Shown: piece after piece, positions 8,521 through 38,406 of the stretch
Layout: every line of letters starts with the position of its first letter
How positions within the stretch are numbered: the first letter of the stretch is position 1
Assembly: GCA_039621445.1 (NCBI GenBank)
Contig: CP154954.1
Span: forward strand, 23,138,954-23,202,953
Source: Euglena gracilis
Taxonomy: Eukaryota
DNA length: 64,000 nucleotides
Direction: 5' to 3'
Made by a program: the position numbers and the translations under genes
Notes under the pieces: generated by a model
Told to the model about the DNA's origin: nothing
The model's input: only the letters and a program-made list of their open reading frames with translations
The model's database searches: none

Positions 8521-8654
8521 CTTTTTTGCTGTGTGGGCACCCAGACCGGTGCACGCTCGAGGAGGTGACACGAAGGGGGAGGGAGAAAAAAACCAGGTTC
8601 GGGACACAGTTTCAGGGCCACCCCCAGGGACCGGGGGGAGAGCGGACCAGCCCA

Positions 8655-10901: not shown

Positions 10902-10911
10902 CTCCCCCCTT
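10902..10911 (-). promoter_or_regulatory. Polypurine tract, unit 1
   Basis: AAGGGGGGAG immediately upstream of the 3' LTR on the minus strand. Confidence 0.9.
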
Positions 10912-16960: not shown

Positions 16961-17109
16961 GCATCAAAAGTTGCAGCTCGTTTTCAATGGGCAACACCTG
17001 ATTAACCTTCGAGGTGTTGGCCAAATGACAACAACGGTCTGGAATTTCCCAAATCCTCAAAGTCCTGGGAATTTTGGGAAATTTCTTTGGGCTGCCCCCC
17101 CAGAAAATG

Positions 17110-17725
17110 CCCAGCACTTAGGGGATAATCAATCACCAGGGGGGTATTCTTCCTTTTTGTCGGGGGGTGAACTTCATTTTTCTGCCCCCCAACAATTCAC
17201 GGTGCCGGAACTGCCATTGTCCCCCATCACCAGGTTAGGACACGATTCGCCATCGCACAACACCGACCGTAATTGTGAAATGGCTGGGCAGCACCAGAAA
17301 CGTGTGGGCTTTTTATAACCCCAATCCGAAAACTGACAATAATCAATGTCGATATAGGGCAGGTTTTTCACCACCTCCCTATTTCGCAAAAGACCAGTGC
17401 GGGGGTTCTCCAACCACCACAACTTTGGCTGAAAAAAAATTTATAATTTCCAGGGCTTTCTCCACCAGGGCATCCGCCTGGGAGAAATCCCTCGGCCTGG
17501 GGTTATAGGCTGTGGAATAAATATTACAGGGGGGACTAGCGGCAATAACCTCAAAAAATCCAACCGGGTATCGCCTGTAGTCCCAGGTCAAAGTGTCTGT
17601 GTGGGGGTGGAAGTCCGTCCAGGGGGCATTTTCAATTGACAAAACTTCATACCCCCGTTCTGCCAACCGCCTCCCTACTGAACCCGTGCCAGCGAATAAA
17701 TCTAATGCCTGAGGTCGCTGGACTG
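17110..17725 (-). pseudogene. C5-cytosine methyltransferase domain, element C unit 1 (frameshift in a homopolymer run)
   Basis: ALDLFAGTGS, ASPPC, then WWLENP and DYCQFSDWGYKKPTRFW in a second frame. Confidence 0.92.
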
Positions 17726-17964
17726 ATGGTAGGGGGTTGGGCTGTGGCAGGTTTGTGTGCAAAATGGGAACCCTTGAACATTTCCCTTCCCTCCAGGAGT
17801 ATTGGGTCCGATTCAAAAATCTGGGGGGCTGATCCAAAGAATGTTTCTCACCACACCCCGAATCAGCCATAAAATCCTGTACAGCCCAGTTTTTTGAATC
17901 AGAAATATTTACACCGTTTTCCTCACAGGGGGGAGAGACACGGCCATGGGCAGCCCCCCCCCTC

Positions 17965-20900: not shown

Positions 20901-22007
20901 AATATGAGGAGGCTGGGGGGTTGCAGCAGCAGCTGGCTGACCGTGATCAACCTCACGGTGCAGCCGTTTTTGCTGAAGTTCATGACTGCCTGGTGATGAA
21001 GCCGGTGTTCGGGGTCGTCGAGCAGAAGTAGAGCTGGGCTGGTCATTCGGGTTTTCCTCTGCCTGCTCGACTTCTGCTCTGACCCGTTCGCTGCTGTCCC
21101 AGTTATTATTATTGTTTAAGCCCAGCACATTGACCTGTGCTTGCTCTTCAAAGAAAACTGGGCTGGGGTTATCACCCCCCTGCCCTGCCGAGGCACTTGC
21201 CGTTTCCTTCACCAGCCCATCTACCTGGGATGGTTGGGAAAACTGCAAAAATGCCACCGGCTCTTGGGCTGGTGTTGAAGAAACTGGTTGAGCTGGAGGC
21301 AAAGGCAATGCAAAAGCGGGTAATGATGGCAGATTCCCTATATTTTGTACCCATGAAAAGTCAGGGAGAGGTTGCAACTCGGGCAGCACAAAACCGTACC
21401 CCATATTTTGCAAAGGCAAAACCCCCGAAAAAGGCTCTGGAAAACACGGTTGGTTGGAAATGACAACCTGGCCATCCCCACCCTGAAATTCCAACATCTG
21501 TCCCATATTTGTGGGGGCTCTGAGTTCAGCCAAACTGGTTTCGGGTCCCAACTCCCTGTTCCCCGAAACTCTAATCGTCAGATTTACCATCTGAGATTGG
21601 GCCATTGGCTGATTGTCAAAGAAAACATTCTGAGCAGGGAATTCCAACCCAAAATTTCTGACAGAAGGCTGAAGGATCAACCTCTGCTTACCATGTTTCA
21701 CACCCGTGGTGCCATGTCCCACGGCAGCACTGGGGTGAAGCGGAATCCCCCGCACTGGGCCAGTTTCCGGCGTAGGATCTTTTTTTGGCTCCTCGAGCCG
21801 ACTTGTGTCGGAAATTTTCCCCCATTCTGCACCCCCCTGTGGCCGAAACTGGGCCATCATTTCCAAGGAGGAACTTCCCAGTGGACCCTCCCCGACCCCT
21901 GAGGGGGGTGTCACTGGGATCTCCAAGGGGGGTGCCTTTGGGGTTTCAACCCCTCCCTGCTCAGCTGAACCAGTGAGAGCCAACACCCCCCCCCCCCTGG
22001 GTGTCAT
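17965..22007 (-). pseudogene. gag: Element C unit 1 gag (Q-rich/coiled-coil, capsid-like, RRM-like, CCHC knuckle), fragmented
   Basis: Consecutive minus-strand ORFs 20808-22007, 20378-21046, 18894-20045 and 17965-18918, ending with CFNCGECGHYFYEC. Confidence 0.85.
21681..21693 (-). promoter_or_regulatory. Primer-binding site, unit 1 (tRNA-iMet-like)
   Basis: TGGTAAGCAGAGG directly after the LTR end. It differs by one inserted base from TGGTAGCAGAGG, the complement of a typical initiator tRNA-Met 3' end. Confidence 0.8.
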
Positions 22008-22802
22008 TTCTCACAGTTTCTGGGCCAAAAAGGGGGTTTTGGGGTGAAAATTGGCCTGTGGTTGCCTGAGTTGCGGAGTCCCACCCCCCTGCCCCTTTTC
22101 CCACAGATGAGGTGGGGGGAAGACAAACCTCACCTTCTTCAATTGAGCTTTCTTGATTGATTTGTTGTCCTTCCATTTGCAATTCCAATTGTAAATCCAA
22201 GTTCAATGATTGAATGTAATTGGTTGTAATTGACACAACAAATTCAATGGTGAAACAAGTGAAGAGGAAGACCCTGTGAAAAGAAAATGATTTTGATGCC
22301 CCTGATGGGCAGTTAAATTTAGGATTGAGTGCGCTGATTCCTAAGCGCTCTCAAATCCCAAATCCTGGCCCATTGCATCAAAATCAACCAACCCAAGTCA
22401 AAATCAAGGTTTCCCCTCTTGATTTTGATAAATTGTGCTGAATTCCATCATTATTGAGCTTTGAAAACCCCTGCAAAAACTCCAGGAACTCAGGCGCCAA
22501 TCTCTTAAAATTCTGTTCCAAGCGCTTGCAAGCGCTCTCACCAAATCCAACATTTTCCCTTAAAACCAAAGGAAAAATGCATAAAAAGCTTAAAAATATG
22601 CTAAATAGACCCAAAATCACCATTTGGGAATACCTAACATCACTCATTCTCTCTTCTTCAACAACCAAACCATGGGCGCCCTAGGAGAGGGAATTTTAAT
22701 GGAAATCTTTAGAAAGCCTGAAAATTAGAGCAAAACCGCCCTCAAAAGGCCTTCTAAAAGGAAAATCTCCGCCGCCCGGCGGGTGACCTCAAACGGTCGT
22801 CA
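21694..22802 (-). repeat. Element C LTR 2 (shared central LTR)
   Basis: Flanked by a PBS on one side and a PPT (22803-22813) on the other. Confidence 0.96.
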
Positions 22803-24625
22803 CTCCCCCCCTTGCGACGAAAGACGGGGGTTTCATTCCCCCTCCTTCTCGCTTTCCTTGGGATGGGAATGAAAGACACTTTGAATTTTTGTAACGCAAT
22901 TGCGATAACATTGTTCGGCAACGTGAATAGGTGGTGGCGTAACGGTGAGGAGGAATCTATAACCCATAGATCCCGTTCCACAACACCGAGCCCCCCCCCC
23001 CTCCACGGTTCTCACCACCGTGAAAGTAAGTGGGGGTGCAACACCACAAAAAAATTCTTTTTGAGTGGATAAGAAGCAGCCCCCCCCCCCCACGGTATTC
23101 CCAACCGTGAAGGGAATGGAGGGTCCATTATCACCAAAAATACTTTCGGTGATTGATGAAAATCAGCCCCCCACCCCGAGGGGAAGGCCTTGGGGAAAAG
23201 CTTGCCCCCCCCCCCCGGCGAGAGGTGGGTTTTACTTGCCCCCCCCCCCCCCGAGGGGAAGGACTTGGGGAAAAGATTGCCCCCCCCCCCGGGGAAGAGG
23301 TGGGCTCGACTTGCCCCCCACCCCCCGAGGGGAAAGCCTTGGGCAACCCCCCCCCCCCCCCCCGGGCAAAGGGAGGGCTTGCCTTGCCCCCCACCCCCCG
23401 GCGGGGAGGTTGAAGAAGACAACTAATCACCTCCTTTTTTTGAAGAAATAACATGCCCCCCCCCCCCGATCAAGCCGACCGGGGTTTCGGGCCTCACTTG
23501 CACAAAGGTGGGGGTATGATAAAATAGCCAATCAAACCGATTGGAGAAAGTGGCCCCCCCCACGAGTGCCACCGACGCGTGAGAGGGGAGCTAATGAAAA
23601 ATCACAGATTCCTCTTTCGATGCAAACAATAAGTGTGTGGTGACGAGGTCAGGCCAGCGAGTGGCATGGGTAAAACGGCTAAATTGTCATCTCCACGCGT
23701 TCACTCCATGTGCTCCGCGTACACGGATACCAGAAAGCAACTCCTTGAAATAGTTTGAACTCCGTCTTCAGTTCATCCAATTCAGAGTCCCAGACTTCAA
23801 ATTTGTAATCCGTCCTGAGTAGGTGAACGAAACGGATAGTGATGGTTGCCAGAGCCAAACGCCTCGTCGACGTTCGGGGTGTTGGGCTTCGGCGTCTTCC
23901 TTGGGTGCCGGTTTGCCTCCCCTTAGTGTGGTCGCAAACCATGCACACCGTTATGTGGGGGTTCCTTCCCCCACTTGAAAATTTGGCAATATGGCTTAGC
24001 CCAGCCAAACCGACAGGGCAATCTCAAATCCACATTGCCAATTACCCCCCCCTCCAATACTTGGAGGAGGCTGTCAAGAGAACAAACCCACGGTTGTGCT
24101 TCCGGTGGTTTGTCATCTTTAAGACATTTTGGTGAAACTTCCAAACCGGAATACACCCACAACAACATAAACAAAACGGGTGGCAATCACACACTCATTC
24201 AACCTTTTGCTTTTGTTGTTGTTGGCAATATCCCTTCCCGTTCCGGGGTGGGATCCTTTGATTGGAAAAGACCCACCCGTATAAAAAACAAGATCCCTGG
24301 CTAGTTTCCCCCTAGCCACGAGAATCCTTCATTCACCCTTGAAATCATTTCACGGGAGTTTAATGGAAAATGAAAAAAAAATCAACAGGGGCAATGAAAT
24401 GTACTCGATTGCCCACACCAGCCTCACCCAAACCAGGGTGTAGTGGTGAATGAAAGCTTCAGGGGAGAAATGAAAAATGAAACCAATGACGAGGAAACTC
24501 CCGTCATTTTTCCCAGGGCCTCAGCCCTGTGATGGGGTCCACCTGCATCTGTGAAGGGGCATAGAATGGGACCCCCCCCCAGGCAACCACCCCAGGCCCT
24601 TTTTCAACTCTCCTTTCCCCCCTTT

Positions 24626-27600
24626 TTAGGTTGCCGTTGCCTTTAAATCCTTAGAGACATCTAGCGGCAACACTTTTCCCAGGCAATACGCTATTACGTC
24701 GCTATTGTACTCCTGGAAAAAATGTTCCACCGGTTCCCAATTCGCCTCCTCAAACCCTTGCCACTTAGTTAAGAAAAACATTTTTCCCTTAACGAATTTG
24801 TGGTTTAGGATTTTATCCACTAACCAGGTATCTGGGGCACCTTCCGCCTTAGGTACCGTCCGCCGGTGGAAAAACAGGGAGATAGGCTGGCTTATCGGAT
24901 GTGGGGTCCTCCACATATACCTTCAAAGCCTTCCGATGGGCCTTCATAATATGGCCCGGCTTGACCTCAATTAGGTAGGAATGAATTACCTCCCTTGCGG
25001 TAACTTTGCAAGGGCACAACCAACGGGAATCTAATTTTGTGCCACCATCGGGGGGTCTCAGGTACCACACCAGATTCCCCACCTCCAATGGCTCCCAACC
25101 GTCTAAACTATGGTTGGCCCGAGCACATTGCTTGGCATGCAAATTATTCACTTTGCCAGCCACTACCAAATCAATTTCTCTTTGCCGAGAGAAAAATGAT
25201 CTGGCATCTTCACAATCCCTTAACGGTTCATAAGGTAAACCACCCAATGAACGGTGTCGACCGAACAAAATTTGAAATGGGCTTAGGCCTCTCCCCAGGC
25301 CTCTCCCCAGGCGTATCATGGATAGGGTCTAGTGCTTGGGGGAGGGCTTCAACCCAATTCAATTTGTCCTCAACCTGAATCTTTTTGAGCCGTTCCATTA
25401 TTTGTTGGCCAGCCCTCTCCGCCCTACCATTCGCCTAGTGATGGTAGACCTGGGAGTAGGCTTGCCTAATTCCCATCAAGGCACACATTGTCTGCCACCA
25501 ACCGGGGACAAAGTGTGAGCCTAGATCGGAAGGAATAATGGAAGTGACACCAAAAGGTCTCCAAGCATGCAACAGCATTTGCTTGGCTGCCTTGGCCCCC
25601 GTAAATCCTTTTGCTAGGTGGGGGATCGCCACTATCCAACCGGAGTGACGATCCACACACACAAGTATGGAGTCGTAAGAATTGCCTTCCCACTCCACGA
25701 GAGGCATGCTAAACATGTCAAGGGCCACCGAATACATTACGGCTGGGGGTATGGGTGTAGATTCCACTAACCCCTTAATACTCGCCGGCCTTCGGCACGC
25801 TTGGCAAGTCCCACAAAGGCCCATGACTCCTTTAGCAAAATCTCGAGCGAGTGAGGAATCGGCCCAGTCATACCTAAGGGACATGCATTCTCATAGCCTT
25901 GGGAATCCCACATGCCCCTGGTATGAGTGGTGATCCCGAATGAGATTTTCTTGGAGAGATTTGGGCACACAAAGCCTCTCCTCGAAAAACATTTTGTCAC
26001 CAAAAACCTTGATATTTTCAGGCCACGGCACCTTTGAATCCTGGGTAGCCTGAAAAATTGGTGACCAACGGGGACATTTTAAATATTCCTCCTTCCACGG
26101 TAAATCCCACACAGAACCAGGGGGGATGGGTGAGGAATCGGTTGTAGAAGTGGCTTCCCCCCCCCTCACCACCCAAACCACCTGAAGACAACACAGGTGA
26201 TTCTCGGTCTGCCCCAGGTACCTCAGTGGTAGCCGCGGCAGCAGGTGCAGGGGTTGGCATTGTTGGCGAAGCTGGTATAGAAGTGGGTGTCAATGGAAAA
26301 TGCTCCCCGCTTGGCCTCCTCCACCAGACTTGTCTCATTCCCAAACTCGTCAACCCGAGTTGAGAATGAAACATGTTTTCCTTTTTCTCCCTTGGAGGTG
26401 GAGGTTGAACCCAAAACCTGGGGTTTTGTTCCTCCAAGTGGTTCTGACTTCCTATCCCCCGGTCGTGTGCACCGTCCACCCGCGTCCCCGGACCCCGTGG
26501 TAGCACCACCCCGTGTGGTGACTCCACGAATGTATGTGTTGGCTGTGGTGGGTTGGTCCACCAACCGCAGCCACATACATTCTGCTTCTTCCAATTTTTC
26601 GGTTTGAGTGATTTCCCTCATTTCCTCGGTGTCAAGGGCAGACCCATGCCATGAAGTGTCCTTCAAGGCTTGGGAGGCCGGGTAAGCCCATCTTGACAAT
26701 AAATCGGCTATGGTATTCTCCCGCCCCGGGATATACCCAACCGAAAAGTCAAATTTTGATAATATTTGATGCCACCTGGCCCTTCTCCCAATGGGACCAC
26801 TTGGCGTATCTAGAACCTCTCTAGCCCAAGATTCTAGAGCCTTGTGGTCCGTGAGAACCAGGACGGGCTGCAGCCCAATCCATGATTCCCACTTTTGTAA
26901 GGCTAGGATTATGGCATAAGTCTCCTGTTCCCTAGGTACCCAGTTTCTTTGGCTGCCCGTTAGCTTCCTACTCATGAAAGCGACAGGCACAGTACGCTTG
27001 GCCCGTACGTCTTCAAGAGTAGGAGCCCTATCCTCCCCAACCAATTGTTCAAGGGTGGCACCAACCGCATACTGGCTGGCATCCACTCTTAAAACAAATG
27101 GTTTGTCTGGCTTAACGTGTTGCAAAATTAATTCACTGCACAACAGTGATTTAATTTTCTCAAATGCCTCAATGTCGGATGGTTCCCAAGAAATACTTTT
27201 CTTGGAACCCTTCTTGCCGTCCACTCGAGAAACTTTGAGCTTATCTTGAAGGCAAGCAACAATGTGGGCGTAATCCTTCACGTAGGAGCTGTAATAATTT
27301 GTGAACCCCAGAAAAGCACGTAAACCCGTGATTGTTTGGGGTAGCTCCCGTTTTTCAATGGCCATTAGCTTTCCAGGGGATGGGTTTCTCACCCCACCAC
27401 CCAGAACATGGCCACAAAACTCAACTTCTTTTACGAAAAGACGGCATTTTCTTTTGTCAGCCACAAATCTTTCTTTTCGTAAAACTTCAAGGACTCTTCG
27501 CAAATCCTTGTCATGTGCTACGAGTAAATCCTCACCAGGAACCACCCGAGTTCCAATCAAAATGTCGTCGATGTAAGGATCAGCCACGTCCCCCACCAGG

Positions 27601-28880
27601 AAGAGGCGATCCTCCATCATTTGCTTAAACTGCTGGCTTGCTTTTGTTAGACCCATCACATCAACCCTCCACTGAAACAGACCGAGGGGGGTACTACAAC
27701 ATGTGATGGGCCGGCTTTCCGGGTCCAACGGCTGTTGGTGGAAAGCCTGCCGTAAATCCAAGATGGAAAACATCATGTTTCCGCCTTGTTTTACCAGGAG
27801 GTCTTCAATTACGGGAAGGGGGTAGGACACACGCCTAGTTTGACTGTTAGGCCCCCGCATGTCTACCACTCCCCTCCATTCACCTCCTTTTTTCGGCACT
27901 ACAAATGTTACGGACAGCCATTCCGAAACTGTTCCCTTGGGTAATCGTTCAACAAAATTCTGGTCCCACCATTCCTGTGTGACCTTTTTGTGAGCTTCAA
28001 ATCTTTCACCGTGTAGGACAAAAGGTTTTTGCCTTGTGGGTACAGCCCCCTCCTTCAGAGGAATCTGGGCGTAACCATAAGGTCCCCGAACTGGAGGGTC
28101 AGGGGGTACCTCCGTACCCAACACCTCCCCTTAAAAATCCTGAAAAACTTTATCCCGAAATGCTACCACCCTGGGGTCCTCCTTCTCACCCGAGTCGCGA
28201 GCCTGGATTATGGCATTCACTGCCTTGTCCTCGGCTGGCGATTCGGTGAGATGGTTAGATATGGTATGCAATTCCTTCTTACCAAGGAATTCGGGTTGCA
28301 TATCAAAGCCTTGCAAGGGTAGGTGTAAATTCATTTTTTGCAGGTCCAACCACACTTTTTCATTTTCAAGGGACTCCGTGGTTGGTGCGTTTTCAGGGTA
28401 TTCTCCGAAGTCAGAAACCACAACCCCAATTCTTTTTTGTGAATTGTGTTTTTTCTTCCCATTATGGGATTTCCGTTTCTGATTTCTTGTATCCCACCCG
28501 TACAAGAAAGTCAGATTAGGATTGTCAAAAACCAAGGCCTTATGGTGTGGGAACACACCCAAACCATGTTCGGCTAACCATGGAAATGATAATATAGCAT
28601 CTACCTCAATATCCGCGAGGTAGAATTCCCCTTCTAGGTACAAGGCCTGGGTGCCCCCCTGCCCCGTACCCCTTCGTTGAAAACCCAACTCCAACTTAAT
28701 ACGCTGGTCGCCCCCCAAAACGCATTGGCCGTTGGCAGCCACCAGCCGAATTGGCATTCGCGGTGACCTGGCCAAATGTTTTGGAACGATGGACTTTTTG
28801 ACCAGGTTCACCTGGGCTCCCGTGTCAACCAAAACTCTGAGCTGCCTGGCACTCCGTTAGGGAGATACGTCTGTGATAGC
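24626..28880 (-). pseudogene. pol: Element C unit 2 pol: protease-RT-RNaseH-integrase-chromodomain
   Basis: VDTGAQVNL (28832), ORF 26223-28124 with YIDD and RNaseH, integrase 25435-26181, chromodomain 24626-24916. Confidence 0.95.
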
Positions 28881-29029
28881 ATCAAAAGTTGCAGCTCGTT
28901 TTCAATGGGCAACACCTGATTAACCTTCGAGGTGTTGGCCAAATGACAACAACGGTCTGGAATTTCCCAAATCCTCAAAGTCCTGGGAATTTTGGGAAAT
29001 TTCTTTGGGCTGCCCCCCCAGAAAATCCC

Positions 29030-29787
29030 CAGCACTTAGGAGATAATCAATCACCAGGGGGGTATTCTTCCTTTTTGTCGGGGGGTGAACTTCATTTTTC
29101 TGCCCCCCAACAATTCACGGTGCCGGAACTGCCATTGTCCCCCATCACCAGGTTAGGACACGATTCGCCATCGCACAACACCGACCGTAATTGTGAAATG
29201 GCTGGGCAGCACCAGAAACGTGTGGGTTTTTTATAACCCCAATCCGAAAACTGACAATAATCAATGTCGATATAGGGCAGGTTTTTCACCACCTCCCTAT
29301 TTCGCAAAAGACCAGTGCGCGGGTTCTCCAACCACCACAACTTTGGCTGAAAATAATTTATAATTTCCAGGGCTTTCTCCACCAGGGCATCCGCCTGGGA
29401 GAAATCCCTCGGCCTGGGGTTATAGGCTGTGGAATAAATATTACAGGGGGGACTAGCGGCAATAACCTCAAAAAATCCAAAGGGGTATCGCCTGTAGTCC
29501 CAGGTCAAAATGTCTGTGTGGGGGTGGAAGTCCGTCCAGGGGGCATTTTCAATTGACAAAACTTCATACCCCCGTTCTGCCAACCGCCTCCCTACTGAAC
29601 CCGTGCCAGCGAATAAATCTAATGCCTGAGGTCGCTGGACTGATGGTAGGGGGTTGGGCTGTGGCAGGTTTGAATGCAAAACAGGAACCCTTGAACATTT
29701 CCCTTCCCTCCAGGAGTATCGGGTCCGATTCAAAAATCTGGGGGGCTGATCCAAAGAATGTTTCTCACCACACCCCGAATCAGCCAT
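29030..29787 (-). CDS. C5-cytosine methyltransferase domain, element C unit 2 (best-preserved copy)
   Basis: One frame holds LDLFAGTGS, EVLSIE, TDIL, ASPPC, WLENP and GYKKPTRFW. A C-terminal RIPP(L)VIDYLL is recoverable after two frameshifts. Confidence 0.93.
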
Positions 29788-29901
29788 AAAATCCTGTACA
29801 GCCCAGTTTTTTGAATCAAAAATATTTACACCGTTTTCCTCACAGGGGGGAGAGACACGGCCATGGGCAGCCCCCCCCTTCTCAAACTGCCCCTGGCCCC
29901 C

Positions 29902-32900
29902 CTATTGGGCCCCAGGGGGAGAAGAGGTTGGCCCACCCCTTTGACCATGCACCCCCCTTGCCTGGGGAATTTCGCTGAGTGGCTGGCTGCCCTGTACCCT
30001 TGGGCTGCATCCTTGCCTTTTCCATTTTTTTTGCCAAAATTCCTTAGATTTAGCAAGGGCCTCACTCAGCGGTTTTTCACACTCATAAAAATAATGTCCA
30101 CACTCCCCACAGTTGAAGCACGGATATGGCGACCTGCCCCGACCCGATGCCTGCGGGGTCCAGGTCTGCCCCCCTTTGCCTTGCCGGGCTGGGGGAGTTG
30201 GACTTTGGGTCCGCGACCATGAAGCTGCACCTGGCCGCGAAGCTGAAGATGGGGACCTGCCACGTGGGGCTGGCTGGGCTGCCCCCTTATCGCCCTTCGC
30301 AGCTGGCTGTGGGGCAGATTTTGAGGTGTGACCCTGCCCTCCAGCCGCTGGTGTTGACACAGAGGTTGGAGACACCGGGGGGGTTTGGCCTTTTTCCAAC
30401 ACCTGTATTTTCCATGAGCCTTTTGTTGTTGATTTGCTGAATAATCTGGGAAAATGGTGCTGATTCAAAGCCAAATCCTGCTTTTCCCGAGGAGCCAACC
30501 TGCCCTCGGCAAAAGCAAACATTTCCTCAACGGCCATTAGTTGTTCCACCAATTCGGCGTTGAGGAAATTTTCCATGCCCTGCAATTTCCTTCCATTTAC
30601 GGCTGTTAATTTTAGTGCCTCCTCCGAAGACCTGAAATAAATAAGGCAAATGGCACCAGGGTTTTTGTAACCACTTTCCGTGGATCAATCCCCCCAGTGA
30701 TCTGGCTCACACTCCTTTTAATCCCATCCACCGTGTGATTTGGTATCCCTGTGAGCCTGACAATGGGTTGTTTACGGGCTCGGTTATCCTCCTCTTCTAT
30801 GCAAAGCTTGCTTAAAAAAGGAGGAATTCTTTCCAAAAATAATCGCCGAGCCTCCCCGGCTGTGGCATCCTTAACATGGTGCCAGGCACTGCAAAACTTA
30901 ATCCAAAATTCTTGCAGATCAGCCCGGGTATTTTCCCTTCGTTAACCATGGTTACCTCCTGCCATATTTTCCGAGCCGTTAGCCCCTTACTCGAAGCATT
31001 ACGACTCTGGAACTGGGCCAATTTGGTGGGGTAACTTAATTTAGCTCCATTCAGCCGATAGAGCCTGATTTCCTCCCTTAACGTGGGTCCTAAACATGCC
31101 TCAAAAACCTGCAGCTTTTGCAAATCAGAATACGGTTTCCGTGATGTCAACCTGTCCCAGTAAAGATTCCAATCTACTTCAAAATCTTGCCAGGAAATGC
31201 TGCCCGATTCATCAAAATAGGGCTTAGCACCTCCCTGCAAAATTTCAAAAGCTACTGGTTCACCAATAAAAGGAAAACCCAACCCGTTACCTGGGTTGGC
31301 TGCAGCCACCTCTGTCCCGATAGGCCTAATCGAGAAAGCAGAGGCTGCAGAAACGTGTGGAGGGACACACAATGACACAGAAGAAACCACTGCTGTGTCT
31401 TGCGTGCCCTCCAAAACAAATCCCCCCTCAATAACTAAGGGAGGGGAAATGTTTGAACCTGCAGATTTATTTTGCAAAAAATTCTGATCTGAAAAAGCTG
31501 GGTCAGCACTGGGCACCGTGCTGGCCAGAGGGCTGGAAGGCTGCCCCAGGGGCTGCTGCTGTCCAGCCGACGGCAGGCCCAGCCCCCTTGGCATCCCGTG
31601 AGCAGGCTGCGGCTCTCCTGCTGGCTGGCCAGGCTGCTGGGCTAGCTGGCCGACGGGCTGCTGGGCCAGCTGCTGCCCAGGCTGTGGCAGCCCAACTGGG
31701 TGCAGGGGCTGCTGGCTGCCCTGCCGCAGCCACCACATGTCAGAAATTTTCTGCAAAACTCCTCTCGGTTCTGCAGTTGGGTGTACGGGTCCATTTTGTT
31801 GTATATCCTGCAACACTTTCTGCAACTCGAAAGTGTTCCCCCCAACTTTTGCAAGTCCCTGCCTTAATTCCTCCACCAGCCCACCAAATTTCTTCTCCTG
31901 GGAACAAATCTGCTGATGAACACTCTGAAAATTCTGCTGACAATCCGTCAACAGTTTTTGTATTTCTGAGTGTCGTTTCCCTGCTTCATCTGAAATATTC
32001 TGGTGCAGTTTCTGAATACCACCACCAAAACCATGGAGGGCCGTATTCGTTGCTGAATTTTGCACACTCAGCTGGCGAACATAATCAGCGAACTGCTGGA
32101 GCTGCCGAGCCTGGCCCTGTACCGTACTACGCAGCGATACCAGGTCAGCCTGAACTTCAATGATTTTGGCAGCGACAACGGCCAGCTCCTGGAGAGTTTC
32201 TGCCTCCCCCCCTTGAGCTGGCTTGGCGGCTTTAAAATTCTCAGCAAACCGCTGAAAATTTTCAAGCCCGAGATCCTTAATTGGTAAGGCAGCCACCTAA
32301 TTCTGCACTTGTTTCAAAATTTCCTGTGGCAGGCTCTCCAAAATTCGTAAAAACTCCTGCCTCAGTGCGAAAAACTGATCACGGCTCGAAGAAAACTGTT
32401 GGGCCAGTTTTTCCTCAAAACTTTTTTCCTGGCCGACAAAAAGTTCAAGTGCCTGTGCGTCAATTTTTTGCACAGAAATTTGCACCTGGGCCTCACATTT
32501 TTTCTCAAAAAGTTCAAAAATATGGAGGCAGTCAGCCCTGGCCGTTTCTTCGATTCGTGCAGTCATGTGCTCCACCAGGTGGATGTCGACAGCGGGGGGT
32601 TGTTGCTGCTGCTGCTGCAGAACCCACTCTTTGTTGGCTTTTTCCAAAGCCAAAACCCGAAAATTCGGGTGCTGCACTGTCCACTGGAGGTCTCTGTTAC
32701 TTTGTAAAAATTGCCCCCAGGGGTCTTCAAATCCCTGATTTTGTGAACCCCCCCCTGGGGGTGGGTTCAGAACTTTCATGGGCTGGGGGTTGGACCTCCT
32801 CCTCACCCCCCTCGATGAAAATATGAGGAGGCTGGGGGGTTGCAGCAGCAGCTGGCTGACCGTGATCAACCTCACGGTGCAGCCGTTTTTGCTGAAGTTC

Positions 32901-33758
32901 ATGACTGCCTGGTGATGAAGCCGGTGTTCGGGGTCGTCGAGCAGAAGTAGAGCTGGGCTGGTCCTTCGGGTTTTCCTCTGCCTGCTCGACTTCTGCTCTG
33001 ACCCGTTCGCTGCTGTCCCAGTTATTATTATTGTTTAAGCCCAGCACACTGACCTGTGCTTGCTTTTCAAAGAAAACTGGGCTGGGGTTATCACCCCCCT
33101 GCCCTGCCGAGGCACTTGCCGTTTCCTTCACCAGCCCATCTACCTGGGATGGTTGGGAATACTGCAAAAATGCCACCGGCTCTTGGGCTGGTGTTGAAGA
33201 AACTGGTTGAGCTGGAGGCAAAGGCAATGCAAAAGCGGGTAATGATGGCAGATTCCCTATATTTTGCACCCATGAAAAGTCAGGGAGAGGTTGCAACTCG
33301 GGCAGCACAAAACCGTACCCCATATTTTGCAAAGGCAAAACCCCCGAAAAAGGCTCTGGAAAACACGGTTGGTTGGAAATGACAACCTGGCCATCCCCAC
33401 CCTGAAATTCCAACATCTGTCCCATATTTGTGGGGGCTCTGAGTTCAGCCAAACTGGTTTCGGGTCCCAACTCCCTGTTCCCCGAAACTCTAATCGTCCG
33501 ATTTACCATCTGAGATTGGGCCATTGGCTGATTGTCAAAGAAAACATTCTGAGCAGGGAATTCCAACCCAAAATTTCCGACAGAAGGCTGAAGGATCAAC
33601 CTCTGCTTACCATGTTTCACACCCGTGCTGCCATGTCCCACGGCAGCACTGGGATGAAGCGGAAACCCCCGAACCGGGCCAGTTTCCAGCGTAGGATCGT
33701 TTTTTTGGCTCCTCGAGCCGACTTGTGTCGGAAATTTTCCCCCATTCTGCACCCCCAT
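29902..33758 (-). pseudogene. gag: Element C unit 2 gag
   Basis: ORFs 32727-33758, 32297-32902, 30812-32296, 30612-30836 and 29902-30585, the last with the CCHC knuckle. Confidence 0.85.
33600..33612 (-). promoter_or_regulatory. Primer-binding site, unit 2
   Basis: TGGTAAGCAGAGG adjacent to the 5' LTR. Confidence 0.8.
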
Positions 33759-34722
33759 GTGGCCGAAACTGGGCCATCATTTCCAAGGAGGAACTTCCCA
33801 GTGGACCCTCCCCGACCCCTGAGGGGGGTGTCACTGGGATCTCCAAGGGGGGTGCCTTTGGGGTTTCAACCCCTCCCTGCTCAGCTGAACCAGTGAGAGC
33901 CAACACCCCCCCCCCCCCTGGGTGTCATTTCTCACAGTTTCTGGGCCAAAAAGGGGGTTTTGGGGTGAAAATTGGCCTGTGGTTGCCTGAGTTGAGGAGT
34001 CCCACCCCCTGCCACTTTTCCCACAGATGAGGTGGGGGGAAGACAAACCTCACCTTCTTCAATTGAGCTTTCTTGATTGATTTGTTGTCCTTCCATTTGC
34101 AATTCCAATTGTAAATCCAAGTTCAATGATTGAATGTAATTGGTCGTAATTGACACAACAAATTCAATGGTGAAACAAGTGAAGAGGAAAACCCTGTGAA
34201 AAGAAAATGATTTTGATGCCCCTGATGGGCAGTTAAATTTAGGATTGAGTGCGCTGATTCCTAAGCGCTCTCAAATCCCAAATCCTGGCCCATTGCATCA
34301 AAATAAACCAATCCAAGTCAAAATCAAGGTTTCCCTCCTTGATTTTGATAAATTATGCTGAATTCCATCATTATTGAGCTTTGCAAACCCCTGCAAAAAC
34401 TACAGGAACTCAGGCGCCGATCTCTTAAAATTCTGTTCCAAGCGCTTGCAAGCGCTCCCACCAAATCCAACATTTTCCCTTAAAACCGAAGGAAAAATGC
34501 ATAAAAAGCTTAAAAATATGCTAAATAGACCCAAAATCACCATTTGGGAATACCTAGCATCACTCATTCTCTCTCCTTGCACAACCAAACCATGGGGGCC
34601 CTAGGAGAGGTAATTTTAATGGAAATCTTTAGAAAGCCTTACGGCTAGAGCAAAACCGCCCTCAAAAGGCCTTCTAAAAGGAAAATCTCCGCCGCCCGGC
34701 GGTCGACCTCAAACGGTCGTCA
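33613..34722 (-). repeat. Element C LTR 3 (5' LTR)
   Basis: TGTTTCACACCC...GGTCGTCA followed by the TSD GAAG. Confidence 0.96.
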
Positions 34723-37700
34723 GAAGTGGAGGCACGGGCAGCCCAAGGGTTCATCCTTGTTCCCGAAGGGGAACAGGTCACCAGCCAGCGGGCTGAGGAG
34801 CTTCGGGCAGCCCTCGGGAGGTACTCCGAGAGGGAGGTTCTCCGAGACAGGATTTGGGGAAAGTATCGTCCGGGGCCCCTGGGGGAAGGTAAAATCGACT
34901 TAAAACCGGGATCTGTAGCGAAAAAGAAGAGGCCCATCCGCCTGACGGGGGAGAGGCACAGGACATTGTGTGATCTGGTGGATGAGTGGGTTCGGGACAA
35001 GAAGGTGGAGGAGGGGGTGCCTAGTGCCTTGAGCAGCCCCACATTCGTGGTGGCCAAGAAACAAGGGAAGTGGCTTGGGTTTGTAGATTTCCGGGCATTG
35101 AACGAGGCCACAGTGACGGATGCATACCCCCTCCCCAGGATCCAGGACATCCTGGTGAACCAGGGACCAAGGTACCTGTTCTCCGTCCTTGATCTCAAGG
35201 ATGCCTTCCATCAGGTGCCCCTGCACGAAGACTCGCGCCCATACACCCGCTGCAGCACCCCGCGGGGGTCCAAGCAGTGGAGTGTGGCCGTGATGGGCCT
35301 GAAAAATGGAGTGGCCATTTTTCAGCGGGTGATCGACTACTCGCTGAGTGATGTGGCTGATGTCGCCAACCCATACGTTGACGACATGATTGTGGTCATT
35401 GTGCTCCGTCCCGTGGCACGTAGGAAGCTACCCTGGAGGCACACGACCAGGACATTAGACGAGCGTTGGTGGCACTGCGGGAACACCGCCTGGTCGTGGA
35501 CAAAAACAAGTGCTGCTTCTTCGTAAGAGGAGTTGAATTCTGTGGCCACATCCTGGGGGGAGGAAAACGGAGGCCAGCACCGGGCAAACTCATGGCGCTG
35601 GAGAAGTGGGAGGAGCCCCGCACGATCACATCCATCAGGGGCTTTCTGGGCTTCACCAACTACTACTCCAGCTACGTGACAGAGTACGCCCGGTATGTAG
35701 CCCCCCTGATGGAACTCCTCAAGGTGGGACGTGTGGAAGGGAAAAACGGCAGCAAAAAACCTGTTAAATTCGGCAAAGTGGAACGGGAGGCCCTCACCGC
35801 CCTGAATCAGGAGCTCCTCCGGTGACTGGAGCTCCGCACCATCAACCTGGACCAGCCTCTCATTCTCTGGGTTGATGCGAGCGACAACGTGGTGGGGGCA
35901 GCCCTTGAACAGTTTTTGGAGCCAACGAAGGAGATGGCCACAGCCGGGGAGGCCACCACACGGAAAACCGTGCCTGTGGCCTTCTGCTCCAGGAAGCTCA
36001 CGGCTGGGCAGGTGAAGAGCTGGTCTCCGCGAGAGAAGGAGACTTACGCCATCATCCTGGCCCTCCAAAAATGGGCCTCCTACATCGGCCTGCAGCCGGT
36101 GTTGGTCCTAACGGACCACAAGTCCCTGGAGGCCTGGGCCAAGGAGACCCTGGACACGCCCATCGGACCTGCCGGGAGGCGGGGATGCTGGCATGAAATG
36201 TTCTCTCTGTTTGACCTTAACGTGGTCTACATCCCGGGAAAGGAAAACGTGGTGGCAGATGCCCTGAGCATATGGGCATATCCTGCCTGCAAAGCTTTTG
36301 CCGACGTCAGCCTCCACGGGAGTGAGGAGGATGGTGAGACAATGAGGGCCATGATCGAGGAAGAACGGAGGGTAAAGCGAGAATGCGGGACACCGCACGG
36401 GGGGGAGGAACTCCACGTAGCGGTAACAACACGTAGTGGGAGAGACACATCAGCACAGCACAGACCTGGCCCGAGCCCCACAGAGGGGTAGGGGGCTGAG
36501 GATTCAGTGCCAGGGGGCCCTGGCCCTGACACCACAGGGGGGGAGGGGCCTGTGGACGCCCCCTCGGGAGATTCGGGTGACATCCTCACGGGAGGGGAGG
36601 GGCCTGGGGTACCTGGGTTGGACACGCGGGAGACACGAGGCTACCCGCGTGCCCATCTTTTCGTGGATGAATTCGTGAATGAACAGGCGGCAAGAAGGGG
36701 GGGACCTGAGGAACACCAACCAGGGCGAAGAGTTCTGAGTGAGGACCTGCAGCCAAACCCCCCCATCGATGATCACCCCCGGGGGGTTCTTGGGGAACCT
36801 GAGGGAACCTATTTCACTTTCTCCAGACACGGGGGTGCACACCCAGGAGGAGGTGGAGGAGGATCCCTCCATCCCAGTGATGGACAGGGATTGGTCACGG
36901 GCATATGGGAATTGCCCTGTGTGGGGGCCTGTTTTTGCAAGTGTGCAGGCCCCTGCGGGAGATTGAGATTGGGCTGAGGGAGTCCGTCTTTACGAGGACA
37001 AAATGTACACGGACGGGCTCCTCTGTGTGCCCACCAGCTTGATGGGGCTCGTGGTCCGGGCCCACCACGGGGACGCGGGCCACCCAGGAGCCTCCAGGCT
37101 ATGGCACCAGATGGGGCGGTGGTACAGGTTCGCGGATCCAAGGGGAGCTGAGAAAATCACCCAAGGCATCCAGCGGCAATGTGAAATCTGCCAAGCCTGT
37201 GACCCCTCTCGAGCACCTTCCAAGTGTGCTCTCGAAGCCACCCCTGTGCCACCGTTCCTCATGGACAGCGTGGCAGTGGACCTGTTCGCCATGCCTGAGG
37301 TGACCCACGAGGGCCAGGTGTATGATTACCTGGCCCTGTGCGTGGACCGTGAGAGTGGGTGGAAAGTGGCCACCCCCAACAAGTACAAGTGCCTGACATC
37401 TGAGGTGGTGGCAAAGGCCATGTTCTGCCACTGGGACATGTTCGGGGTACCCCCTGTGGTGACCTCGGACCGTGGCCCCCACTTTGTTTCGGCTTGGTGG
37501 CAAACAATGTGCGCCGCCATGAGGGTGAGGCGTGCCTACGGGCAGACCTACCACCACCAGGCCAACGGTCGGGCAGAGGTGGCAGGCCAACGGGTGATGA
37601 ACACCCTGACCAAGCTGATCGCCGACCTGTCGGAAAAGGAGGCCTCATGGGTGGTGCTGTTACCCAAGGCTCTCCGGCACCTTCACGATGTGCCTGGGGA

Positions 37701-38406
37701 GTTCGGCTTGTCGCCCTACGAGGTGGTCTTCGGGCGGCACAGACCACTACAAGGCCTGCCCCATCAGCCCCCACGAGAAGCCGAGGGGGCGGCTGATTTC
37801 ATGGCACGGATGCGGGCTATGGATGAGAAGGTGGCCTCCACCCTGAATGTCCTCCACACCAAGAGGCAGGCTTCCATCAACGCCAGGAGAAGGGACCCAC
37901 CTCCCCTGGAGGTCGGTGACAGGGTGTGGTACCGCCCCGAGACACAGCCGGGGACAGACAAGTTGGCCACCAAGTGGAAAAGGGGGACAGTGGTGGCTCG
38001 CAGGGGTGGCCACTCATATGTGGTGGAGCTGGCCCCGGGGGCCCGCAAAGAGGCTCACCGGAGCCAGCTCAAGCTCCACACGGAGGGTGAGTTCTCCTCA
38101 GACCCCCTCCCACTCTTCTATTTCAACGACAAGGCGGCCCCCCTGGAGGTGAGCCCCGATGAGTGGTTGGTGGAGGAGATTGTGGGCAGCCGGAACCACC
38201 CGGAAACGGGAGTCCCAGAATTTCAGGTGAGGTGGAAAAATTGGGATCCGACGGATCTCCAATGGCTGACATGGTCGGATTTCTTCCATCCTACGACGAG
38301 GATGTGGTGTATTATTGTGCAGCCAAGGGGATCCCGTTGGAGGTGGTGGGACTTCTCCGCCCCGGGAGGAGAGGGGCGGGGTCGAAGGCAACAGGGGAGG
38401 GTTTGA
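34723..38406 (+). pseudogene. pol: Element B, 3' half: RT-RNaseH-integrase-chromodomain
   Basis: VDFRALN, LDLKDAFHQ, YVDD; VDAS, KETYAI, LTDHKSL; HH..GHPG, CEICQ, VAVDLF, SDRG, QANGRAE; WLVEEIV..FQVRWKNW. Confidence 0.95.

What the first reader, a model, noticed from the sequence alone, without database searches (positions are those of the whole stretch)
29030..29787. A second, divergent Gypsy family has the homologous C5 MTase at the same position, with intact catalytic motifs
Seen: both units of C (also 17110-17725) encode LDLFAGTGS / SPPC / ENP / YKKPT between the knuckle and protease. This is homologous to B (AD.LV..AL.II.Y..P..WWL.NPR.G.LR.R, D.CQ..DWGY.KPTR.W, CDG..CPNL), although the B and C RTs are quite diverged. 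I found no Dam domain in C when reading the frames between knuckle and DNMT. Inference: the DNMT is an old, retained component of this clade and the Dam module is gained or lost. The compact ~200-aa form looks more like phage or giant-virus MTases than DNMT1/3. The conserved Cys cluster may bind metal.
Basis: partly seen in the sequence, partly recalled or inferred. Interest (0 to 1): 0.88.

Follow-up and report, generated by a model that had tools for sequence, protein, structure and literature searches.

The report
Gypsy retrotransposon carrying a compact cytosine methyltransferase
A jumping gene of the Gypsy type carries, just ahead of its protease, a very small DNA cytosine methyltransferase whose nearest relatives are stand-alone enzymes of giant viruses and phages; mobile elements with such enzymes are already described, so this is a new variant, not a new kind.

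Summary
Window 9796-34722 (minus strand) is one chromovirus-type Ty3/Gypsy insertion in LTR-internal-LTR-internal-LTR form. Both 11.9-kb units encode a C5-cytosine-methyltransferase-like domain of about 200 aa between the Gag CCHC knuckle and the aspartic protease. Motifs I (LDLFAGTGS), IV (SPPC), VI (ENP) and KPTR and a Cys cluster are present. Homology rests on 2678 database relatives, a profile match to DNMT1/DNMT2/M.HhaI, and a confident model (pLDDT 92) whose best solved matches are DNMT3, M.HaeIII and DNMT1. Family C has no Dam domain. The interrupted family B (Dam-DNMT-protease) carries the same domain, and its divergence from C (42%) matches that of RT/RH/IN (44-50%). All 27 retroelement-context relatives form one clade (support 98-99), apart from all sampled viral contigs. 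The window copies are dead: the domain's C-terminal tail is frame-broken in both units, at places where many other copies in public runs differ in length. A 2026 preprint already describes DAM+DNMT+chromodomain "EpiLTRs", and a 2018 paper other DNMT retrotransposons. New here are a Dam-less variant, the viral kinship and a minimal domain with a conserved Cys3-His cluster. Catalysis and target are inferred.

The parts
9796..34722 (-). Whole family-C insertion: LTR-internal-LTR-internal-LTR, two units of about 11.9 kb that are 97.5% identical, flanked by the 4-bp repeat CTTC
   Evidence: Self-blastn and boundary sequences
33613..34722 (-). 5' LTR (about 1.1 kb, TG...ACA), followed by a primer-binding-site-like TGGTAAGCAG
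21694..22802 (-). Shared middle LTR, preceded by the polypurine tract GCAAGGGGGGGAG
9796..10901 (-). 3' LTR, preceded by a polypurine tract
30812..33776 (-). Unit 2: long upstream ORFs (349, 245 and 494 aa) with no Pfam family, presumed N-terminal Gag region
30079..30120 (-). Unit 2: Gag CCHC zinc knuckle CFNCGECGHYFYEC, inside the ORF 29902-30684
29902..29904 (-). In-frame TAG between the knuckle ORF and the methyltransferase ORF, shared by both units
29035..29622 (-). Unit 2: compact C5-cytosine-methyltransferase-like domain. Motifs I to VIII and the Cys cluster lie in one frame (29622-29135). The C-terminal tail lies in two other frames
28134..28856 (-). Unit 2: aspartic protease (DTGA at 28826-28815). 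No Pfam family at E<=0.01 for this ORF, which is named by motif and position
26226..28130 (-). Unit 2: reverse transcriptase and RNase H (PF00078, PF17917, PF17919)
24852..25890 (-). Unit 2: integrase (rve core at 25438-25890, C-terminal part in another frame)
24629..24922 (-). Unit 2: chromodomain (PF00385, E 3.7e-5, 24.0 bits, cut-off 25.1)
17117..17732 (-). Unit 1: the same methyltransferase domain, with one extra frame change near 17403-17437 and the same broken tail
8071..8632 (+). Family B: Dam-like N6-adenine methyltransferase (NPPY). Pfam Dam is weak (E 0.008). tblastn with a Dam-bearing relative gives E 1e-41
8657..9143 (+). Family B: homologous compact C5 methyltransferase domain, split over three frames, with QNP in place of ENP
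9223..9629 (+). Family B: protease (DTGA). B is then interrupted by the C insertion at 9796
34873..38345 (+). Family B continued after the C insertion: RT, RNase H, integrase, chromodomain

Best explanation
Family C is a chromovirus-type Ty3/Gypsy LTR retrotransposon. Its Pol region begins with a compact, SAM-dependent C5-cytosine methyltransferase domain of about 200 aa, placed between the Gag zinc knuckle and the aspartic protease.

Shown here: the element's anatomy; the homology and fold of the domain; conservation of the catalytic Cys (PC motif), the motif VI Glu and the SAM-binding FxGxG across retroelement and viral relatives; absence of Dam in C; a retroelement-borne clade that holds both C and the Dam-bearing family B.

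Inferred: the domain is translated with Pol downstream of the in-frame TAG that ends Gag (other lineages fuse it in one ORF). The element's protease then releases it. It methylates cytosines in the element's own DNA, either the new cDNA or the fresh insertion, so that the copy matches a heavily CpG-methylated host genome.

The usual target-recognition domain is replaced by a short loop held by a conserved Cys3-His cluster, probably a zinc site. This suggests low sequence specificity.

The two copies in this window are dead descendants of a very abundant family in which many copies do not share the window copy's breaks.
For: Anatomy. Three LTR copies of 1.1 kb have TG...ACA ends, and a PBS-like TGG, a polypurine tract and a 4-bp flanking repeat are present. 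The order is knuckle, methyltransferase, protease, RT, RNase H, integrase, chromodomain.

Homology. There are 2678 representatives at E<=1e-3. The profile of 44 sequences hits DNMT1 (1.7e-5), DNMT2 (0.007-0.012), M.HhaI (0.09) and M.HaeIII (0.1) over motifs I-VI.

Fold. The model of the window ORF has pLDDT 92.1 and pTM 0.87. The top Foldseek PDB hits are DNMT3B/3A/3C, M.HaeIII and DNMT1, from E 5.5e-8, TM 0.55-0.64. The complete domain of relative P0010 aligns end to end with DNMT3B 571-845 (Z 14.1, rmsd 4.9, 196 aligned) and M.HhaI 11-327 (Z 13.6, rmsd 4.4, 194 aligned).

Constraint. In 27 retroelement-context rows, the catalytic Cys is kept in 27, the motif VI Glu in 26, K141 and T143 in 27 each, C132 in 27, and C159 and C164 in 26 each. 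B-C identity of the domain is 42%, against 44-50% for RT, RNase H and integrase.

Part of Pol. Relative P0024 (2513 aa) is one ORF with DNMT, protease, RT, RNase H, integrase and chromodomain.

Other copies. I padded the four places where copies in the runs differ in length (29131, 29056, 28971, 28851). Unit 2 then reads 1227 codons from the methyltransferase to the end of RNase H with one stop. That stop is at 28131-28133, where nearly all other copies read another letter (X1: 101833 of 101898 depth).

Host context. CpG observed/expected is 0.52 in the internal part of C and 0.40 in the LTR, with TG excess.
Against: No enzymatic activity, substrate or target motif is shown for any member of this clade in what I read. 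The 2026 preprint tested the DAM domains, not this DNMT (passages read).

The window ORF is below Pfam's cut-off (19.4 against 22 bits).

Both window copies have the tail out of frame. B has Q for the motif VI Glu.

Motifs VIII and X are non-canonical (KPTR, and R-I-P instead of GNAV). A normal target-recognition domain is missing, so DNA recognition is unexplained.

Transcription is not shown. The runs laid were contigs, and their 'RNA?' label is a guess.

The RT-versus-DNMT congruence test on 15 pairs showed no correlation (Spearman -0.02), because all identities lie in a narrow 37-60% band.

CpG depletion is also seen in the rest of the window (0.63 overall), so it is not specific to these elements.
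Confidence: 0.72

Rival explanations
1. The domain methylates RNA, not DNA. Targets could be the element's genomic RNA or its tRNA primer. It would work like DNMT2, a C5 methyltransferase with the DNA-enzyme fold that acts on tRNA.
For: No conventional target-recognition domain is present. DNMT2/tRNA (cytosine-38) methyltransferase chains are among the profile's sequence hits (E 0.007-0.012). The domain sits in a polyprotein that handles RNA and a tRNA primer.
Against: The best fold matches are DNA enzymes: DNMT3, M.HaeIII, M.HhaI and DNMT1. The sister group is stand-alone genes on double-stranded DNA virus contigs, next to N6/N4 DNA methyltransferase genes in both loci examined (L020 and L056). 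In family B and 12 database relatives the domain travels with a Dam-type DNA adenine methyltransferase.
Confidence: 0.12
2. The domain is a catalytically dead relic or a structural or binding module. It would be kept for another reason (for example DNA or SAM binding) or simply not yet lost.
For: Both window copies are frame-broken in the tail. B has Q for the catalytic Glu. Motifs VIII-X deviate from the canonical forms. No activity data exist.
Against: The catalytic Cys is kept in 27 of 27 and the Glu in 26 of 27 retroelement-context rows. Both are kept in 75 of 75 viral rows. This holds despite 40-50% divergence, equal to that of RT. The window copies' breaks are absent from a large share of other copies.
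Confidence: 0.1
3. The enzyme is active on DNA but acts in trans on host chromatin rather than on the element's own cDNA. For example, with the integrase chromodomain it could mark or spread heterochromatin at insertion sites, or disturb host methylation.
For: It co-occurs with an integrase chromodomain in C, B and P0024. De Mendoza et al. 2018 raise non-specific activity of retrotransposon DNMTs on the host methylome (PMC5890265, section 7 read).
Against: Nothing here separates cis from trans action. The position upstream of the protease suggests a freely released protein that could be packaged with Pol. That would favour action on cDNA, but this is an inference.
Confidence: 0.2
4. The methyltransferase is not part of the Gypsy element but a nested insertion or an assembly chimera.
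For: The 2026 preprint warns of nested insertions and assembly artefacts among Euglena elements (section 7 read). The window is itself a nest of elements (C lies inside B).
Against: The domain has the same place and frame in both units. No repeats flank it. Database polyproteins show continuous ORFs: P0024, P0036, P0066 and P0120. In other copies one frame runs from the domain into protease and RT.
Confidence: 0.02

Closest known systems
EpiLTRs of Euglena gracilis and Cymbomonas tetramitiformis (Fernandez-Moreno et al., bioRxiv 10.64898/2026.05.21.726589; abstract, section 7 and searched passages from other sections, including section 8, read)
   Same: Both are Ty3/Gypsy or chromovirus-like LTR elements that carry a cytosine methyltransferase and a chromodomain. 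Family B in this window has the full set: Dam, DNMT and chromodomain.
   Different: Family C has no Dam domain, so it does not meet the EpiLTR definition. The preprint's screen started from DAM proteins, so Dam-less relatives were outside its scope in the text I read. The preprint places the DNMT as sister to DNMT4 in a tree of eukaryotic families (its Supplementary Fig. 2D, which I did not see). Here the nearest relatives by far are compact viral enzymes. I could not confirm that the preprint's sequences are the same clade.
KnitGypsy-Dnmt3, SymbioDIRS-Dnmt3 and SymbioLINE-Dnmt (de Mendoza et al. 2018, PMC5890265; sections 6 and 7 and passages of section 9 read)
   Same: These are retrotransposons that carry a C5 methyltransferase with conserved catalytic residues inside their coding region. 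KnitGypsy is also a Gypsy element with the domain in Pol.
   Different: Those domains are DNMT3-family or a Symbiodinium-specific lineage of normal size. This one is a roughly 200-aa form with a minimal recognition loop, it sits upstream of the protease, and it has a viral sister group.
Compact stand-alone viral methyltransferases: Tetraselmis virus 1 putative cytosine DNA methyltransferase (218 aa), Bacillus phage JBP901 gp140 (221 aa), Haloferax tailed virus 1 gp60 (218 aa)
   Same: They share the size, motif order (FxGxG, PC, ENP, KxT), Cys/His cluster and C-terminal R-I-P tail. TetV-1: Foldseek E 1.3e-16, TM 0.76, rmsd 2.0, 35% identity. Phage records: 64 hits at under 60% identity, with 27-36% among the 25 listed. 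IMG/VR: 232 of 243 candidates at 37-47% identity.
   Different: They are free-standing genes of double-stranded DNA viruses, not part of a retroelement polyprotein. They form a separate clade from all 27 retroelement-context rows.
DNMT3A/3B catalytic domain and M.HhaI
   Same: The fold is the same from motif I to the C-terminal helix (Z 13-14, about 195-200 aligned residues). The catalytic Cys and Glu are in place.
   Different: Sequence identity in the fold alignments is about 11-20%. The domain is about 70-120 residues shorter, and the recognition domain is replaced by a Cys3-His loop. There are no PWWP or ADD partner domains.

Membership tests
C5-cytosine methyltransferase superfamily (Pfam PF00145) | Motif I FxGxG (SAM binding) | tested here: met
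   LDLFAGTGS at 29622-29596. F13 is kept in 26 of 27 and G15 in 25 of 27 retroelement-context rows.
C5-cytosine methyltransferase superfamily (Pfam PF00145) | Motif IV Pro-Cys with the catalytic cysteine | tested here: met
   SPPC at 29454-29443. The Cys is kept in 27 of 27 retroelement-context, 75 of 75 viral and 160 of 163 other rows.
C5-cytosine methyltransferase superfamily (Pfam PF00145) | Motif VI Glu (ENV) | tested here: met
   ENP at 29328-29320. The Glu is kept in 26 of 27 retroelement-context rows. The exception is the window's B copy, which reads Q.
C5-cytosine methyltransferase superfamily (Pfam PF00145) | Motifs VIII to X and a target-recognition domain | tested here: inconclusive
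   KPTR stands where QxRxR is expected, and R-I-P where GNAV is expected (the canonical forms are recalled). The tail of a complete relative aligns with the C-terminal end of DNMT3 and M.HhaI. The recognition domain is reduced to a Cys3-His loop. In the window copies the tail is out of frame.
C5-cytosine methyltransferase superfamily (Pfam PF00145) | Score at or above Pfam's gathering cut-off | tested here: not met
   The window ORF scores 19.4 bits against a cut-off of 22. Ten of 20 relatives scanned reach it, always over profile positions up to about 136 of 324 only.
C5-cytosine methyltransferase superfamily (Pfam PF00145) | Rossmann-type C5 methyltransferase fold | tested here: met
   pLDDT 92.1. 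Foldseek probability 1.00 to DNMT3, M.HaeIII and DNMT1. VIA Z 13-14.
C5-cytosine methyltransferase superfamily (Pfam PF00145) | SAM-dependent methyl transfer to cytosine C5 | not testable with these tools
   This needs an enzyme assay or a methylome.
Ty3/Gypsy chromovirus | LTRs with TG..CA ends, primer-binding site, polypurine tract and target-site duplication | tested here: met
Ty3/Gypsy chromovirus | Pol order protease, RT, RNase H, integrase | tested here: met
Ty3/Gypsy chromovirus | Chromodomain at the integrase C-terminus | tested here: met
   PF00385, E 3.7e-5, 24.0 bits, just under the cut-off of 25.1. It aligns with the chromodomains of B and P0024.
EpiLTR (DAM + DNMT + chromodomain LTR element) | Dam-type adenine methyltransferase domain | tested here: not met
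   For family C: no Dam by tblastn with three queries or by Pfam. Family B meets this feature (8071-8632).
EpiLTR (DAM + DNMT + chromodomain LTR element) | Cytosine methyltransferase and chromodomain in the same element | tested here: met
DNMT3 family (as in KnitGypsy-Dnmt3 and SymbioDIRS-Dnmt3) | Sequence groups with DNMT3 rather than with other C5 methyltransferases | tested here: inconclusive
   DNMT3 chains top the fold lists. None is among the 60 best of 69 sequence matches of the profile, where DNMT1 leads. Compact viral enzymes are far closer. No joint tree with DNMT3 was built.
DNMT4 (the sister group claimed for EpiLTR DNMTs in the preprint) | Phylogenetic sister relation to DNMT4 | not tested

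The most novel reading that the evidence does not exclude
The retroelement-borne domain and the stand-alone enzymes of giant viruses share a recent common origin, so the module moved between a large DNA virus and a Gypsy-type element. It is a minimal, zinc-stabilised C5 DNA methyltransferase without a conventional recognition domain. Whole clades of LTR elements, with or without Dam, use it to write 5mC on their own new DNA. It would be the smallest DNA cytosine methyltransferase known in a eukaryotic genome and a modular epigenetic cassette, shuffled around the protease in at least six arrangements.
Probability: 0.35. Interest if true: 0.7.

Novelty: new variant of a known kind. Interest (0 to 1): 0.5.

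Why it matters
Retrotransposons that carry their own DNA methyltransferase reverse the usual picture of methylation as a host weapon against mobile elements. This window shows three things. The compact DNMT module is not tied to the Dam module. It is as conserved as reverse transcriptase between diverged families. Its nearest kin are viral enzymes rather than the host-type DNMT1/3 families. That gives a concrete route (virus to retroelement, or the reverse) for the spread of epigenetic writers. It also gives a small, probably low-specificity cytosine methyltransferase that can be tested directly. Since the element class is already in a 2018 paper and a 2026 preprint, the gain is refinement rather than discovery of a new kind.

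Tried and rejected
1. Variant genetic code for the in-frame stops: rejected. TAG, TGA and TAA all occur and frames also shift, so these are decayed copies.

2. A read-through signal after the TAG at 29902-29904: the 111-nt fold is no better than shuffles (z -0.43; 65 of 200 shuffles fold as well).

3. RT-versus-DNMT congruence from six elements that hold both domains: no correlation over 15 pairs and too narrow a range of identities, so uninformative.

4. The metagenome scan for close relatives with flanking DNA gave only 5 short loci (1.3-5.2 kb) out of 350 pattern matches. No dN/dS or architecture survey from DNA was possible.

5. Whole genome: none is held.

6. Transcription: five runs labelled 'RNA?' hold 21-30% of the sampled words, and two were laid. 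They are contigs and the label is a guess, so expression is not shown.

A crude script count of the His after the Cys pair failed, because the window tail is misaligned, and was dropped.

8. Viral context: of the 17 ORFs scanned in two viral loci (the two methyltransferase ORFs included), 14 had no Pfam family. One N6/N4 methyltransferase lay in each locus, plus one sugar transferase. Two of the 80 kept contig names carry a giant-virus MAG label. No hallmark virus gene was checked.

9. Dam as a single gain or loss on the tree: not decidable, since absence of Dam in fragmentary proteins is not evidence.

10. Supplementary files of both key papers were not seen. They may hold the DNMT tree and element sequences that bear on whether family C or its clade is already listed.
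Full report
**What is at the coordinates**

The finding lies inside a minus-strand LTR retrotransposon that fills window 9796-34722. Self-comparison shows that 9796-22802 matches 21694-34722 at 97.5% identity over 13 kb. A 1.1-kb segment is present three times, at 9796-10901, 21694-22802 and 33613-34722.

Read on the minus strand, each of these copies starts with TG and ends with ACA. The two copies that have internal sequence downstream (21694-22802 and 33613-34722) are followed by TGGTAAGCAG, like a primer-binding site. The two that have internal sequence upstream (9796-10901 and 21694-22802) are preceded by the purine run GCAAGGGGGGGAG. The whole array is flanked on both sides by CTTC.

So this is one insertion in LTR-internal-LTR-internal-LTR form, the usual product of recombination between copies. 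It sits inside another element, family B, on the plus strand.

**Gene order of family C**

In unit 2 the minus strand reads as follows:
- three long ORFs without any Pfam family (30812-33776);
- an ORF with the CCHC knuckle CFNCGECGHYFYEC (30120-30079);
- an in-frame TAG (29904-29902);
- the 269-aa ORF of the finding (29901-29092);
- a protease with DTGA (28826-28815);
- RT and RNase H (28130-26226; PF00078, PF17917, PF17919);
- the integrase core (25890-25438);
- a chromodomain (24922-24629; 24.0 bits against a cut-off of 25.1).

The stops that interrupt the frames are a mix of TAG, TGA and TAA, and there are frame changes. The copies are therefore decayed, and no unusual genetic code is needed.

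**The observation**

| Motif | Coordinates |
|---|---|
| LDLFAGTGS | 29622-29596 |
| SPPC | 29454-29443 |
| ENP | 29328-29320 |
| DYC | 29262-29254 |
| YKKPT | 29235-29221 |
| CDGESC | 29175-29158 |

Unit 1 has the same domain at 17177-17732, with one extra frame change. Family B has it at 8657-9143 in three frames, directly after a Dam-like domain with NPPY (8071-8632) and before its protease (9223-9629).

First, comparison with relatives shows that the domain continues past the Cys cluster with a conserved His, an LGG and a K..R-I-P..L tail. In both window units this tail lies in two other frames (about 29135-29035), so the domain is not whole. Second, the B copy reads QNP where 26 of 27 retroelement-context relatives have the Glu.

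**Is it really a cytosine methyltransferase domain?**

Pfam alone is marginal: PF00145, E 7.9e-4, 19.4 bits against a cut-off of 22, covering profile positions 5-116 of 324. The wider evidence is strong.
- phmmer against 1.84 billion representatives finds 2678 proteins at E<=1e-3, of which 1224 at <=1e-10 and 161 at <=1e-30.
- Of 20 of these scanned with Pfam, 13 hit PF00145 at E<=1e-3 and 10 reach its cut-off.
- A profile of 44 members (A1) matches only C5 methyltransferases at the top of the solved-structure list: DNMT1 1.7e-5, DNMT2 0.007-0.012, M.HhaI 0.09, M.HaeIII 0.1.
- The AlphaFold model of the window ORF has pLDDT 92.1 and pTM 0.87.
- Its best solved matches are DNMT3B/3A/3C, M.HaeIII and DNMT1: Foldseek from E 5.5e-8, probability 1.00, TM 0.55-0.64.
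- A model of a complete relative (P0010; block means 85 or more from residue 71 to 280) aligns end to end with the catalytic domains of DNMT3B (571-845; Z 14.1, rmsd 4.9, 196 aligned) and M.HhaI (11-327; Z 13.6, rmsd 4.4, 194 aligned).

So the roughly 210-residue domain spans the whole catalytic core from motif I to the C-terminal helix. What is missing is the usual target-recognition domain. In its place is a short segment with C132, C159, C164 and a following His. C132 and C164 are invariant in A1, C164 also in A3, and the rest are at least 90% conserved. That is a plausible zinc site, but its geometry could not be checked.

**Constraint**

In 27 rows with retroelement context the key residues are kept as follows:

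| Residue | Kept (of 27) |
|---|---|
| Catalytic Cys | 27 |
| Motif VI Glu | 26 (the exception is the window's B copy) |
| P110 | 27 |
| C132 | 27 |
| K141 | 27 |
| T143 | 27 |
| C159 | 26 |
| C164 | 26 |

All 75 viral rows keep the Cys and the Glu.

Between B and C the methyltransferase is 42% identical, with X at B's breaks. RT is 46%, RNase H 50%, and integrase 49% and 44%. A domain drifting neutrally over that distance would not be recognisable.

**No Dam in C**

tblastn with the B Dam domain and two Dam-bearing relatives finds Dam only at 8071-8632. The only hit inside C at E<1 is one of E 0.47 at 19310-19675. Pfam finds no Dam in the 17 ORFs of unit 2 that were scanned. Only about 135 residues lie between the knuckle and motif I, and they hold no NPPY.

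**Relatives and origin**

Among the 268 proteins fetched, 30 show retroelement context by local phmmer with the window's own domains. They have varied orders:
- DNMT, protease, RT (and RNase H, integrase, chromodomain), as in C. This includes one 2513-aa single ORF, P0024.
- DAM, DNMT, protease, as in B.
- DAM, protease, DNMT, RT.
- Protease, DNMT, DAM.
- DNMT, protease, DAM.
- DNMT, DAM.

At lower identity (35-47%) there are many stand-alone proteins of 195-240 aa. In IMG/VR, 232 of 243 candidate viral contigs encode one, and two of the 80 kept contig names carry a giant-virus MAG label. In two such loci the neighbours are mostly ORFs without a family, plus an N6/N4 DNA methyltransferase.

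The best match in the viral structure library is the 218-aa putative cytosine methyltransferase of Tetraselmis virus 1 (E 1.3e-16, TM 0.76, rmsd 2.0, 35% identity). In GenBank phages, 64 records match. Among them are 221-aa and 218-aa genes of Bacillus phage JBP901 and Haloferax tailed virus 1. The protein-language-model atlas likewise returns compact clusters of 188-217 aa, three of the four shown viral and one archaeal.

A FastTree of 267 rows puts all 27 retroelement-context rows, with 81 context-less metagenome rows, in one clade (SH-like 98) that holds none of the 75 viral rows. I then built an IQ-TREE from 90 rows. These were all 27 retroelement-context rows, 28 of the 75 viral rows and 30 of the 163 metagenome rows drawn at random, 3 added near relatives and 2 phage outgroups. 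This tree gives the same split. The retroelement clade has SH-aLRT 99. The viral group has 86, and the two join at 87.

B (with P0037 and P0045) and C (with P0151 and P0152) sit in different parts of the retroelement clade. Dam-bearing rows are scattered within it. Absence of Dam cannot be trusted in fragments, so the direction of gain or loss stays open.

**State of the family in its host**

Runs of one coded organism, from 14 studies, hold 21-46% of the sampled words of 28100-30700. Four runs were laid, all as contigs. A very large number of pieces matched (1927 and 954 in the two DNA runs), so the family is highly repeated.

The copies differ in length by one letter at 29131 (58% and 33% of depth in the two DNA runs, and all of it in the two small runs) and at 29056 (20%, 24%, all and 40%). 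These are exactly the two places where the window copy's tail changes frame. Further length differences lie at 28971 and 28851.

I padded these four places so that only the frame is followed. Unit 2 then reads 1227 codons from the start of the methyltransferase ORF to the end of RNase H with a single stop. That stop is at 28131-28133, a place where nearly all other copies read another letter.

So in many copies the domain is in one frame with protease and RT. Whether any copy is transcribed is not shown, because the 'RNA?' label of the small runs is a guess.

CpG is depleted in C (observed/expected 0.52 internal, 0.40 in the LTR), with TG excess. The window as a whole is also depleted (0.63), so this is only consistent with, not specific evidence for, methylation of these elements.

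**Mechanism**

Shown: the domain is part of the element's coding region, has the C5 methyltransferase fold and catalytic residues, and is conserved like RT.

Inferred:
- It is made with Pol, downstream of the TAG that ends Gag. No special read-through structure was detected (z -0.43). Other lineages fuse it in one ORF.
- The protease cuts it out.
- It methylates cytosines of the element's own DNA with little sequence selectivity.
- This lets a new copy resemble a heavily methylated host genome. In family B this would be combined with adenine methylation.

The main rivals are an RNA target as for DNMT2, a dead relic, and action in trans on host chromatin. A nested-insertion or assembly artefact is very unlikely.

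**What is already known**

De Mendoza et al. 2018 (PMC5890265; sections 6 and 7 and passages of section 9 read) described DNMT-bearing LINE and DIRS elements in Symbiodinium. They also described a Gypsy element with DNMT3 in Klebsormidium, with conserved residues, Ka/Ks below 0.2 and de novo CG methylation.

Fernandez-Moreno et al. (bioRxiv 10.64898/2026.05.21.726589; abstract, section 7 and searched passages from other sections, including section 8, read) describe 'EpiLTRs'. These are LTR elements with DAM, DNMT and a chromodomain in Euglena gracilis and Cymbomonas tetramitiformis. They place the DNMT as sister to DNMT4 in a supplementary tree that I could not see.

Family B fits that description. 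Family C lacks Dam and so falls outside it. My four literature searches found no text on a Dam-less LTR family with this compact DNMT, on its kinship with compact viral enzymes, or on its Cys3-His loop. Supplements were closed and may hold more.

The host of the window was not identified. A euglenid or green-algal host is only a guess from the preprint.

**Verdict**

This is a new variant of a known kind of element, with a useful refinement on the origin and minimal architecture of the methyltransferase module. The window copies themselves are inactive.

Noticed in passing
9796-34722: Family C is present as LTR-internal-LTR-internal-LTR with one 4-bp flanking repeat (CTTC). It is a recombination product of one insertion, nested inside family B between B's protease and RT.
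   Followed up: yes
8886-9143 (+): The B copy reads QNP where the motif VI Glu is otherwise kept (26 of 27 retroelement-context rows). Its methyltransferase domain is also split over three frames, so this B copy is dead as well.
   Followed up: partly
5-3777 (+): A third chromovirus copy (protease, RT, RNase H, integrase, chromodomain) has an RT 65% identical to C, closer than B is. It is cut by the window start, so whether it carries the methyltransferase cannot be seen.
   Followed up: no
59233-62024 (-): A further Gypsy-like element (RT 36-37%, RNase H 40-47% identical to C, plus a chromodomain-like match). tblastn at E<=10 finds no methyltransferase match in the 2 kb upstream of its RT (62025-64000). 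It is possibly a chromovirus without the methyltransferase in the same genome.
   Followed up: partly
29902-29904 and 29935: The Gag/Pol border is an in-frame TAG shared by both units. Some copies in the runs carry two extra letters behind 29935 (about 23-32% of depth in the DNA runs), so the frame relation of Gag and Pol may differ between copies. The RNA fold downstream of the TAG is not better than shuffles.
   Followed up: partly
30812-33776 (-), also 18894-22010: About 1000 residues of ORF upstream of the knuckle have no Pfam family. There are only weak coiled-coil-type hits such as Orbi_VP5 at E 8e-4. This is an unusually long N-terminal Gag region.
   Followed up: no
database relatives (P0005, P0037, P0040, P0061, P0062, P0093): Dam, protease and the cytosine methyltransferase occur in at least six different orders among relatives, so the two methyltransferase modules have been shuffled around the protease. 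P0040 is filed under the plant Genlisea aurea (partial, 2.5-kb contig). This may be contamination from trapped microbes.
   Followed up: partly
whole window: CpG observed/expected is 0.63 overall, 0.40-0.52 in family C and 0.92 in 56001-64000. CC and GG are over-represented (1.3-1.5), with many G or C runs of 6-8.
   Followed up: no
36000-40000 and 42000-45000: These are GC-rich stretches (0.58-0.66) with long overlapping ORFs on both strands and internal repeats of about 65-200 bp period (43948-44403). Several of their long ORFs gave no Pfam family; the repeats were not examined.
   Followed up: no
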